From Octopus vulgaris (lineage: Eukaryota), in the NCBI GenBank assembly GCA_951406725.2, contig OX597814.1:89466001-89530000 (forward strand): DNA of 64,000 bases, written 5' to 3'. Within the stretch, counting starts at the first letter, position 1, and each line of letters opens with the position of its first letter. Positions 5,613-7,499 of this stretch are shown here, one piece after another. The position numbers and the translations under genes are program-made. Under the pieces are notes generated by a model that saw nothing but the letters and a program-made list of their open reading frames with translations, did not search any database and was not told where the DNA came from.

Positions 5613-6354
5613 GAGGCGGTATAATAATATCAAAAGTTTTAAGAGCTATCATCCGAAATAATTAAAATAGTTTAATCATTCAGCTAATGTATTTTCCTCA
5701 CTCCATTCGTATTACTAATTTCATTCCTATGCACACTAAGTTAGCTATTTCGATAAACATGAAATATAGTTCAATGACTTTTGTTGTCTGTTATGGACAG
5801 TCTGAAAACCTTCACTGAGATTCCTCTCCAAGACACAAGCGTGACAAAATTTTTGTTTGAAAGTCAGCAAGTGGTAAGTTAGCTGCAGTTTTCACAGTTT
5901 TGTTTTTAAATTAGCGTTCATATTTAAAACATTTCAATGGACGAGTTATAATTTCTCATATATAAAACTATTTTTGCTTTATCGCCATCTGTGATGATTG
6001 TCGAGAAAGTAGTCAGTTGGAACACTTGCTCTTCAGCTAACAGATGTCTCTATCATTTCTAAGAGTGTACGAAGCTAATCGCTCTATATGTCACCATTCA
6101 TCTGTGGAAATGAATAAATAGATAAATACATATAAGAGAAATAATATATTTCTAAATCTCTCAGAGAGATTTATATAGTAGCAACGCAATAAAGTGATGG
6201 TATGTTGTCAACTTAATGTGACAATCCCAGAAAGGGAAGAATGCTACTGCTATTTAGCTCTAGGAAACACCGTTTCCTGTTGGCCTTGACACATTTCCTG
6301 TGTCCTTATGTTTACAAAGGAGGAGATAAGCACCTCCATCCTTCAAAGCCAGCA

Positions 6355-6397
6355 TCCAGAGACTAGTTTCAGAGTTATTGCTCATCATCAGTCTGGA
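6355..6397 (-). ncRNA. Minimal type I hammerhead ribozyme, intact core
   Basis: Minus strand TCCAGA-CTGATGA-TGAG-CAATAA-CTCT-GAAA-CTA-GTC-TCTGGA: stem I TCCAGA/TCTGGA, palindromic ACTAGT stem III, GUC cleavage triplet. Confidence 0.85.
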
Positions 6398-6651
6398 GTA
6401 GCATGGCTTGCTAGCTGTCGATGCCTATCTGCCTTTGTAAACATATAATAATTCAAGTGAGATGCAGTCACTAATTTCGAAAATAGAAATAATACATTTC
6501 TAAATCTTCCAGAGTGCTGCTACTGTATAAATCTCTCTGAGAGATTTAGAAATGAATTATTTCTATTTTCGAAATCAGTGAATGTATTTCAATTGAATTA
6601 TTATATGTTTACAAAGGCAGATAGGCATCGACAGCTAGCAAGCCATGCTAC

Positions 6652-6694
6652 TCCAGACTGATGATGAGCAATGATTCTGAAGCTAGTCTCTGGA
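6652..6694 (+). ncRNA. Minimal type I hammerhead ribozyme, mutated copy (GAAG)
   Basis: TCCAGA-CTGATGA-TGAGCAATGATTCT-GAAG-CTAGTC-TCTGGA; mirror copy of 6355-6397. Confidence 0.7.
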
Positions 6695-7499
6695 TGCTGG
6701 CTTTTATGGGTGGAGGTACTTATCTCCCCCTTTGTAAACATAAGAACACAGGAAATGTGTCAAGGTCAACAGGGAACGGTGTTTCCTAGGGCTAAATAGC
6801 AGTAGCATTCTTTCCTTTCATGGGACTGTCACATTAAGTTGACAACATACCATCACTTTACATATAAGAAAAATATTTATAAAATAAATTTCAGTAATAT
6901 ACTAGTTTCGTCTCCTCTGCCCATCCTTTTTTTTAAAGATCTCATTTAGCGTCGAATGAAAACATCAATATTTCTGTGAAAAATTAAAAAAGAGAAAACG
7001 AAAAAAAAATAAAACAAAACAAAACAAAGCAAGAGACAGATCGTGTTTTGAGAACTTAGATTTTAGGATTGTATTTTTTGTGGTTAAAATCTCCGTACTT
7101 ACTAGTTCAAAGATTTTCAATATTTTCTTTCGAATGTAAAAATCAATATAGTTCTAAGACACATACATACACACAAAGAAAATAACTTCAATATTTTATT
7201 TTGTCAAATAAAATCCTAAGATGAAGAAATTGTTATTTGACTTACAAGGTCCTTGAAATATTCTTCAATACTACAACGTGAACATAATTCCAAATTCTCT
7301 GTGGTTGGTTTAGTGGAATCGGTAAAACTTTGAGATGAAATATCTCGAGGTATTTACTTTCGTTTCTTTATGTTTTTTGCTCATAACCTACCGACGTCAT
7401 CTTTGCTTTTTATTCTTCCAGAATTAATAAAACATTGATCAAGTACTAGAGTCGATGAAGTAAAATGTCCTTTACCACCAATTTCTTCTTCTTCTTCTA

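What the first reader, a model, noticed from the sequence alone, without database searches (positions are those of the whole stretch)
6138..6859. Circularly permuted ~350 nt hammerhead unit (retrozyme-like) captured as an inverted pair
Seen: the right arm runs from GTGCTGCTACTGTATAAATCTCTCTGAGAGATTTAGAAAT (6514) to CATCACTTTA (6860). The left arm, read on the minus strand, passes CATCACTTTA and continues straight into a second copy of that start sequence (6189-6138), so the end of the unit is joined to its own beginning. The minus-strand HHR (6355-6397) has an intact core, a 6 bp stem I, palindromic ACTAGT and GUC. Inference: the template was a tandem or circular RNA of about 350 nt with one HHR per unit. 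The palindromic stem III would favour dimeric cleavage.
Basis: partly seen in the sequence, partly recalled or inferred. Interest (0 to 1): 0.85.

Follow-up and report, generated by a model that had tools for sequence, protein, structure and literature searches.

The report
Twin-primed non-coding Penelope hammerhead insertion
This is one old insertion of a common, non-coding 350-base jumping element that carries a hammerhead ribozyme motif; its two head-to-head halves were likely copied at once from both cut strands of the target DNA, a known Penelope-type layout that here follows an unusually strict one-long-end, one-short-end rule.

Summary
The inverted pair, the end-to-start junction and the type I hammerhead motif are real. 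It belongs to a dispersed, non-coding family with a 348-350-nt cyclic unit, 2,822 first-look candidates and about 86% identity between copies. The permutation is not variable: 159 of 193 arm ends fall at two fixed sites about 55 nt apart, the 'tail-less' and 'tailed' ends of Penelope-like elements (PLEs), far from the hammerhead cut. Of 62 inverted loci with both ends at these sites, 61 pair one tailed with one tail-less end. A sister family (11 of 14) and a young coding PLE (2 clear cases) show the same. Best reading: a non-autonomous PLE (animal retrozyme class), likely inserted by a dimeric PLE enzyme priming both nicked strands, one start site each. A circular RNA and self-cleavage are untested; RNA reads look like read-through. 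No partner PLE was identified. The layout is published, and this scan noted similar PLE ends in other genomes. The quantified pairing rule is the only fresh point.

The parts
6127..6137 (+). Left copy of 11-bp target-site duplication (1-2 terminal bases shared with the element)
6138..6189 (-). Tail: first ~52 nt of the next unit; the tailed 3' end of the left arm, inferred RT start site 1. Holds a palindromic hairpin at about 6153-6173
6190..6514 (-). Left arm: unit positions ~22-348, 5'-truncated at the central junction
6355..6397 (-). Type I hammerhead motif, core intact; 6-bp stem I extended by a bulged helix to about 6345-6410; stem II of 3 bp plus U.U; palindromic stem III; predicted cut between 6361 and 6360
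6515..6534 (.). 20-nt unpaired centre between the arms (start of the right arm); head-to-head junction of two 5' ends
6514..6860 (+). Right arm: one full unit (1-348) ending at the tail-less 3' end, inferred RT start site 2
6652..6694 (+). Second hammerhead motif with GAAG in place of GAAA; likely impaired
6859..6869 (+). Right copy of the target-site duplication

Best explanation
The 722-bp structure is a single old insertion of a non-coding, 350-base hammerhead-bearing repeat that was likely mobilised by a Penelope-like element's reverse transcriptase-endonuclease, with both target strands likely primed in the same event. Shown: a cyclic non-coding unit, two fixed 3' ends about 55 nt apart, head-to-head arms with their 3' ends at a target duplication, and one tailed plus one tail-less end per inverted insertion. 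Inferred: a dimeric enzyme nicks both strands about 10 nt apart. Each 3'-OH primes cDNA inside a more-than-unit-length RNA, one at the tailed site and one at the tail-less site. The two cDNAs stop at variable points and are joined end to end, and repair duplicates the target. Not shown: whether the RNA is a linear read-through of a partial tandem or a hammerhead-made circle, whether the hammerhead cuts, and which PLE supplied the enzyme.
For: 3' ends: 81 tailed and 78 tail-less of 193 ends in 118 loci. Pairing, first sample: 48 tailed/tail-less, 1 tailed/tailed, 0 tail-less/tail-less, 26 with a non-standard end, of 75 inverted loci. Second sample chosen by another motif: 13, 0, 0 and 5 of 18. 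Combined 61 of 62, binomial P about 1e-17. The script flagged no tail-to-tail junction among the 118 loci. Target duplication of 8 nt or more in 28 of 48 such loci against 31 of 2,256 mismatched-flank controls. Arms within a locus are more alike than between loci: 89.8 vs 86.4%, 60 loci, P 1e-9; the window's arms rank top at 94%. Sister family B: 11 of 14 inverted loci pair the same way. The genome holds young RT plus GIY-YIG PLEs; one has two 3' ends about 46 nt apart and tailed/tail-less inverted copies at L177 and L251. In vitro a PLE protein extends both strands, starts at two internal sites that bound the tail, and is modelled as a dimer (PMC11167929). Inverted repeat, tail at one end and a 9-10-bp duplication are described in PMC3846280 and, without the duplication, PMC8557442.
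Against: No autonomous partner was found. The coding-PLE loci examined match the unit only through two unrelated non-coding insertions nearby and short AT-rich stretches. 26 of 75 and 5 of 18 inverted loci have one or both ends off the two sites. 20 of 48 paired loci show no clear duplication under my filter. One family-A locus (complex L031) and one family-B locus (L215) are tailed at both ends. Tailed arms usually run through the tail-less site (only 10 of 48 stop within about 30 nt of it), so simple twin priming on one RNA unit needs strand displacement, a second unit or a second RNA. Within-locus similarity could reflect subfamily age or gene conversion, and was absent in family B (13 loci, P 0.68). 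In vitro the start site did not differ between top and bottom strands. Samples were selected by similarity or exact motifs, not at random.
Confidence: 0.76

Rival explanations
1. Rolling-circle retrozyme: hammerheads cut a multimer into 350-nt monomers that circularise, and the circle is the template copied more than once around. This is compatible with dual priming and differs only in the nature of the template.
For: Unit-into-unit read-through up to 796 nt in family A and 944 nt in family B. The unit folds strongly as a circle, z about -6.8. The core is intact in 28 of 36 copies, and hammerhead motifs persist in sister families about 61-67% identical. Circles of 220-390 nt are shown for coral and reported for mussel retrozymes (PMC7229834).
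Against: Coding 4.3-kb PLEs give the same partial tandems and two ends. Hammerhead-dead RNA inserts equally well in vitro. 5' ends are not enriched at the cut (2 of 54, about 1.7 expected). No arrays were seen. RNA reads are few, on both strands, and 87-90% run into unrelated flanks, with no start or end pile-up at the cut; these libraries may lose small circles.
Confidence: 0.3
2. Fold-back or self-priming: one cDNA (or an antisense template) folds back and copies itself, producing the inverted arm.
For: Proposed for PLE inverted repeats in PMC3846280. The window's own junction is nearly symmetric, with a 20-nt loop beside a palindrome. A related insertion at 21845-22265 has its junction at the palindromic stem III.
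Against: Fold-back predicts that both arms' 5' ends lie close together: 8 of 48 lie within 40 nt against 9.6 expected after shuffling. Many inverted arms hold sequence absent from the other arm (for example L082, L097). It does not explain why the second arm stops at a fixed RT start site flush with the duplication.
Confidence: 0.08
3. The unit is only the terminal repeat of a longer coding PLE, and these copies are its truncated ends.
For: This is the usual origin of such hammerhead-bearing ends (PMC4209133). Only a small part of the family was examined.
Against: All 24 segments of 420 nt or more among 118 loci continue into the previous unit, not into a body. tblastn with two PLE proteins over the family-A loci L001-L120 and L141-L170 found only one fragment, about 600 nt from the element in L104. 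The 2.3-kb spaced pair L061 shows identical ORFs in both halves and no long ORF, so it is a segmental duplication. The longest frame in the unit is 55 codons.
Confidence: 0.06
4. Two independent insertions, a DNA-transposon-like MITE with long terminal inverted repeats, or an assembly artefact.
For: Long inverted arms and an AT-rich target resemble fold-back MITEs.
Against: One duplication flanks the whole structure. Arms differ in length and in outer end, and vary between loci. 43 of 118 loci have no inverted arm. The two arms differ by 6-8%, which an assembly artefact would not give.
Confidence: 0.02

Closest known systems
Animal non-LTR retrozymes (Cervera and De la Pena 2020, PMC7229834; Li, Clavereau and Pollet, bioRxiv 10.64898/2026.07.22.740005)
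   Same: Non-coding 150-450-nt unit, under 50% GC, one type I hammerhead with palindromic stem III, long target duplication, proposed to be non-autonomous PLE derivatives.
   Different: Dispersed monomers, partial tandems and inverted pairs rather than arrays. No abundant circle seen in the reads laid. Stem II base is U.U or C.A. Activity untested.
Endonuclease-positive Penelope-like element insertion unit (Arkhipova et al. 2013, PMC3846280; Craig et al. 2021, PMC8557442)
   Same: Partial tandem, adjacent inverted 5'-truncated copy, tail at one end only, 8-10-bp duplication, hammerhead in the terminal repeat.
   Different: No ORF. The tail is about 52-55 nt rather than 30-40. Those papers call the tail 'optional' or 'often at one end'; here the pairing is nearly strict. 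The 2013 paper explained inversions by self-priming.
Poseidon element of Anolis reconstituted in vitro (Frangieh et al. 2024, PMC11167929)
   Same: Two internal RT start sites bounding the tail, both DNA strands cut and extended, AT-rich targets, hammerhead not at the insertion ends.
   Different: A coding element. The main text does not link the two sites to the two arms of inverted insertions and reports no strand difference in start site.
LINE-1 twin priming (recalled, no call)
   Same: Both nicked strands prime cDNA, giving a 5' inversion inside one target duplication.
   Different: In L1 the second primer anneals at variable internal sites by complementarity. Here it starts at a fixed site, and the arms often overlap in sequence.

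Membership tests
Non-LTR retrozyme | One type I hammerhead motif per unit with palindromic stem III | tested here: met
   Manual motif and stems; Rfam models do not hit
Non-LTR retrozyme | Non-coding unit of 150-450 nt, GC under 50% | tested here: met
   348-350 nt, 39% GC, longest frame 55 codons
Non-LTR retrozyme | Tandem organisation with two or more hammerheads | tested here: inconclusive
   24 partial-tandem segments but only 3 of 118 loci with two whole hammerheads, no arrays; not met at this locus
Non-LTR retrozyme | Target duplication longer than 4 bp | tested here: met
   11 bp here; 28 of 48 paired loci
Non-LTR retrozyme | Expressed as an abundant small circular RNA | tested here: inconclusive
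   Low, two-strand, read-through-like reads in 3 raw runs of one study; junction reads cannot tell circle from tandem
Non-LTR retrozyme | Self-cleavage, as monomer or dimer | not testable with these tools
   Only duplex energy computed: stem III self-duplex -4.8 kcal/mol
Penelope-like element insertion | Partial tandem with variable 5' truncation | tested here: met
Penelope-like element insertion | Head-to-head inverted 5'-truncated copy | tested here: met
   75 of 118 and 18 of 36 loci
Penelope-like element insertion | Two 3' ends separated by a short tail | tested here: met
   159 of 193 ends at two sites
Autonomous Penelope-like element | RT plus GIY-YIG ORF | tested here: not met
   No ORF in or attached to the unit; hence non-autonomous
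Non-autonomous PLE | Terminal sequence shared with an autonomous partner | tested here: inconclusive
   Coding PLEs exist but those examined share no detectable terminal sequence; only part of 6,136 candidates was examined

The most novel reading that the evidence does not exclude
Penelope-like elements integrate by obligatory asymmetric twin priming: a dimeric enzyme assigns one of its two RNA start sites to each nicked target strand, so every complete inverted insertion has exactly one tailed and one tail-less end. This would explain the inverted repeat, the one-sided tail and the target duplication in one step, and replace the self-priming model. The genome's 350-nt non-coding families would be minimal substrates to test it.
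Probability: 0.55. Interest if true: 0.55.

Novelty: new member of a known kind. Interest (0 to 1): 0.32.

Why it matters
The element is ordinary for its class. Its value is as a clean readout of an unresolved step: how PLEs make inverted repeats and one-sided tails, which PMC8557442 lists as an open task. A 61-of-62 pairing rule, a failed fold-back test and a target duplication give a concrete prediction for the existing in vitro system. The same genome holds a young 362-nt sister family and near-identical coding PLEs, which are ready-made substrates and enzymes.

Tried and rejected
Rfam: no hit at gathering score in the window. At E up to 10 there were only hairpin artefacts (miRNA models) and no hammerhead.

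Tandem arrays: none in 154 family-A loci or in the spacing of the 100 listed of 131 exact motif matches.

L061, two same-strand copies 2.3 kb apart, was tested as a coding element and is a segmental duplication.

Partner search: 20 plus 16 GIY-YIG loci and 14 further loci of one coding family were examined. The two unit-like hits (L139, L177) proved to be separate non-coding sister families inserted nearby.

Linear hammerhead-cut monomer as the usual template: not supported (2 of 54 5' ends near the cut). The 1 of 193 in the first sample is biased, because most of those loci were chosen for holding the hammerhead.

Fold-back: rejected.

Run search: no RNA holder listed; not used as evidence either way. 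Expression of the young sister family was not examined.

Dropped rows: L003 and L053 (duplicates) before the 118. Of the 55 matches, 36 loci were used; the rest were duplicates, same-locus matches or not fetched. L150 was counted through a neighbouring element. L209 was left out of the family-B identity test as a likely duplicate of L199; both are among the 11 of 14.

Literature searches for a published pairing rule found only the descriptions cited. Subscription journals, supplementary figures of PMC11167929 and the preprint's supplements were not visible.

Full report
Observation. The region holds two inverted arms, 6190-6514 on minus and 6514-6860 on plus, 91.5% identical; it is the longest inverted repeat of the window. 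The left arm continues into a second copy of the unit start (6138-6189); the period is 348 nt. The minus-strand hammerhead motif is as described: stem I, CUGAUGA, stem II, GAAA, a palindromic stem III and GUC. Stem I extends into a bulged helix and a long hairpin; the unit folds better than all 100 shuffles (z -4.6). Rfam does not detect it. The right-arm copy has GAAG for GAAA, and both copies have U.U at the base of stem II.

The family. The window lies in a 2.8-Gb genome, G000. The right arm has 2,822 first-look candidates, of which 40 were scored, at 87-93% identity apart from itself. A 28-nt hammerhead word occurs exactly 131 times and a 23-nt end word 55 times; controls were 0. Copies average about 86% identity to one another, so the family is old. 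I mapped 118 loci and a second set of 36 on a repeated natural unit. Copies are 5'-truncated monomers, partial tandems and head-to-head inverted pairs. 24 segments reach 420 nt or more and continue from one unit into the previous one, the longest 796 nt; 3 loci hold two whole hammerheads in tandem; no array was seen. No PLE coding sequence is attached, L061 is a segmental duplication, and the unit has no frame over 55 codons. The unit is therefore a complete non-coding element.

Ends. The permutation is fixed. Of 193 arm 3' ends in the first set, 81 fall at unit position 40-65 (tailed), 78 at 333-350 or 1-3 (tail-less) and 34 elsewhere. The hammerhead cut is at 177, and 5' ends are not enriched there (2 of 54). 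Of 75 inverted loci, 48 pair a tailed with a tail-less end, 1 has two tailed ends, none has two tail-less ends, and 26 have at least one non-standard end. The second set gave 13, 0, 0 and 5 of 18; it was selected by a motif next to the tail-less end. Combined, 61 of 62 are mixed (P about 1e-17). A duplication of 8 nt or more flanks 28 of the 48 paired loci, against 31 of 2,256 control pairings and 4 of 43 single-arm loci. Flanks are 73% AT against 62% for the window. Junction gaps are mostly within 10 nt of zero.

Replication in other families. A younger 362-nt sister family (about 61% identical, copies 95-98% alike, 2,746 candidates, inserted in TA repeats) shows 11 mixed, 1 doubly tailed and 2 other among 14 inverted loci of 30; the query selected for one tailed arm. 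A third family (about 65%, 2,595 candidates) also carries hammerhead motifs and inverted arms. A relative of it in this window (about 21845-22265) has one long and one short end and a 12-bp duplication. The genome has young coding PLEs with RT and C-terminal GIY-YIG domains (the RT match is just under Pfam's cut-off). Among 23 loci of the 775-aa family, all 3' ends not cut by the locus edge fall at two positions about 46 nt apart. L177 and L251 are mixed inverted pairs and L250 is ambiguous because its end runs into a TA repeat. None of the coding families examined shares terminal sequence with the unit, so the partner is unidentified.

Mechanism. A staggered double nick leaving 3' overhangs puts a primer on each strand. 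Extension of both gives head-to-head arms with their 3' ends at a duplicated target, which is what is seen; this step is inference. The Anolis PLE protein cuts and extends both strands, starts at two internal sites that bound the tail, is modelled as a dimer, and does not need hammerhead cleavage in vitro (PMC11167929). The strict pairing suggests one start site per strand in each event (inference). Fold-back self-priming, proposed in PMC3846280, predicts adjacent 5' ends; 8 of 48 are within 40 nt against 9.6 by shuffling. Arms within a locus are more alike than between loci in family A (60 loci, P 1e-9) but not in family B (13 loci, P 0.68), so a shared template is plausible and not proven. 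Only 10 of 48 tailed arms stop near the tail-less site, so the second primer uses another unit, another RNA, or is displaced. Whether the more-than-unit template is linear or circular cannot be told from DNA.

RNA. Three raw RNA runs of one study gave 590, 578 and 453 family reads among 11.5-12.9 million read. Both orientations were about equal and 87-90% ran on into unlike sequence. The only listed start or end pile-up was at 6173 in one run, none at the cut. Five reads join unit end to unit start, which genomic tandems also give. This looks like read-through of embedded copies; such libraries may miss a small circle.

Comparison. It is built like a PLE insertion: partial tandem, inverted copy, one-sided tail, 8-10-bp duplication (PMC3846280; PMC8557442). 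Opposite-strand hammerhead pairs 100-700 bp apart were already noted (PMC4209133). It meets the sequence criteria of animal non-LTR retrozymes (PMC7229834), which a 2026 preprint treats as non-autonomous PLEs; tandem arrays, circle and cleavage are not established. Searches for a published tailed/tail-less pairing rule found only the qualitative statements above. Earlier notes of this scan describe similar PLE ends in other genomes; none concerns this sequence or genome.

What I read: preprint 10.64898/2026.07.22.740005, parts 1-3 of 5 (main text; supplements not seen). PMC11167929, parts 1-3 of 4, plus a term search of 3 supplement files held as text with no hits (figures not visible). PMC4209133, parts 1-2 of 4. 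PMC7229834, passages and part 2 of 6. PMC8557442, PMC3846280 and PMC2377424, passages only. L1 twin priming and the expected harm of GAAG for GAAA are recalled.

Verdict. A real feature and a new member of a known kind. Interest 0.32, carried by the quantified pairing rule, not by the ribozyme or the permutation.

Noticed in passing
window 21831-22275: A second head-to-head insertion, about 80% identical to the third family, with one long and one short end, a 12-bp duplication (21831-21842, 22264-22275) and its junction at the palindromic stem III of the hammerhead.
   Followed up: partly
L139:17-305; L187-L216: Young 362-nt sister family in TA repeats with a U3/A8 hammerhead core variant and up to 2.6 tandem units. 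The 781-aa coding PLE has the same core variant and the same stem III palindrome, a possible lead to its partner.
   Followed up: partly
L177:5110-5315; L263-L282: Third non-coding family, about 65% identical to the unit, 2,595 candidates, hammerhead with C.A at the base of stem II.
   Followed up: partly
window 6355-6397; L177:4300-4350; L265-L281: The base pair of stem II is mismatched (U.U or C.A) in family A, the third family and the young 775-aa PLE, instead of the usual G-C; it looks like a lineage trait.
   Followed up: partly
L217-L228, L249-L262: Very young coding PLE: all 76 scored matches are 100% identical in protein over 573-574 residues, with a 4,270-nt tandem period and insertion in TA repeats.
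   Followed up: partly
L171:906-1982 and 2245-4587: The 781-aa PLE has a separate upstream open frame of 330-380 codons with no Pfam match.
   Followed up: no
family-A loci, unit positions 201-250: 5' truncations cluster at the 3' foot of the long hairpin that encloses the hammerhead (20 of 54 ends), suggesting RT pausing.
   Followed up: partly
window 3744-3987, 7500-7887, 14192-14529, 42486-42905, 50035-50272 and others: Many dispersed SINE-like copies of about 200-270 nt on both strands and long TA, GT and AAT microsatellites.
   Followed up: no
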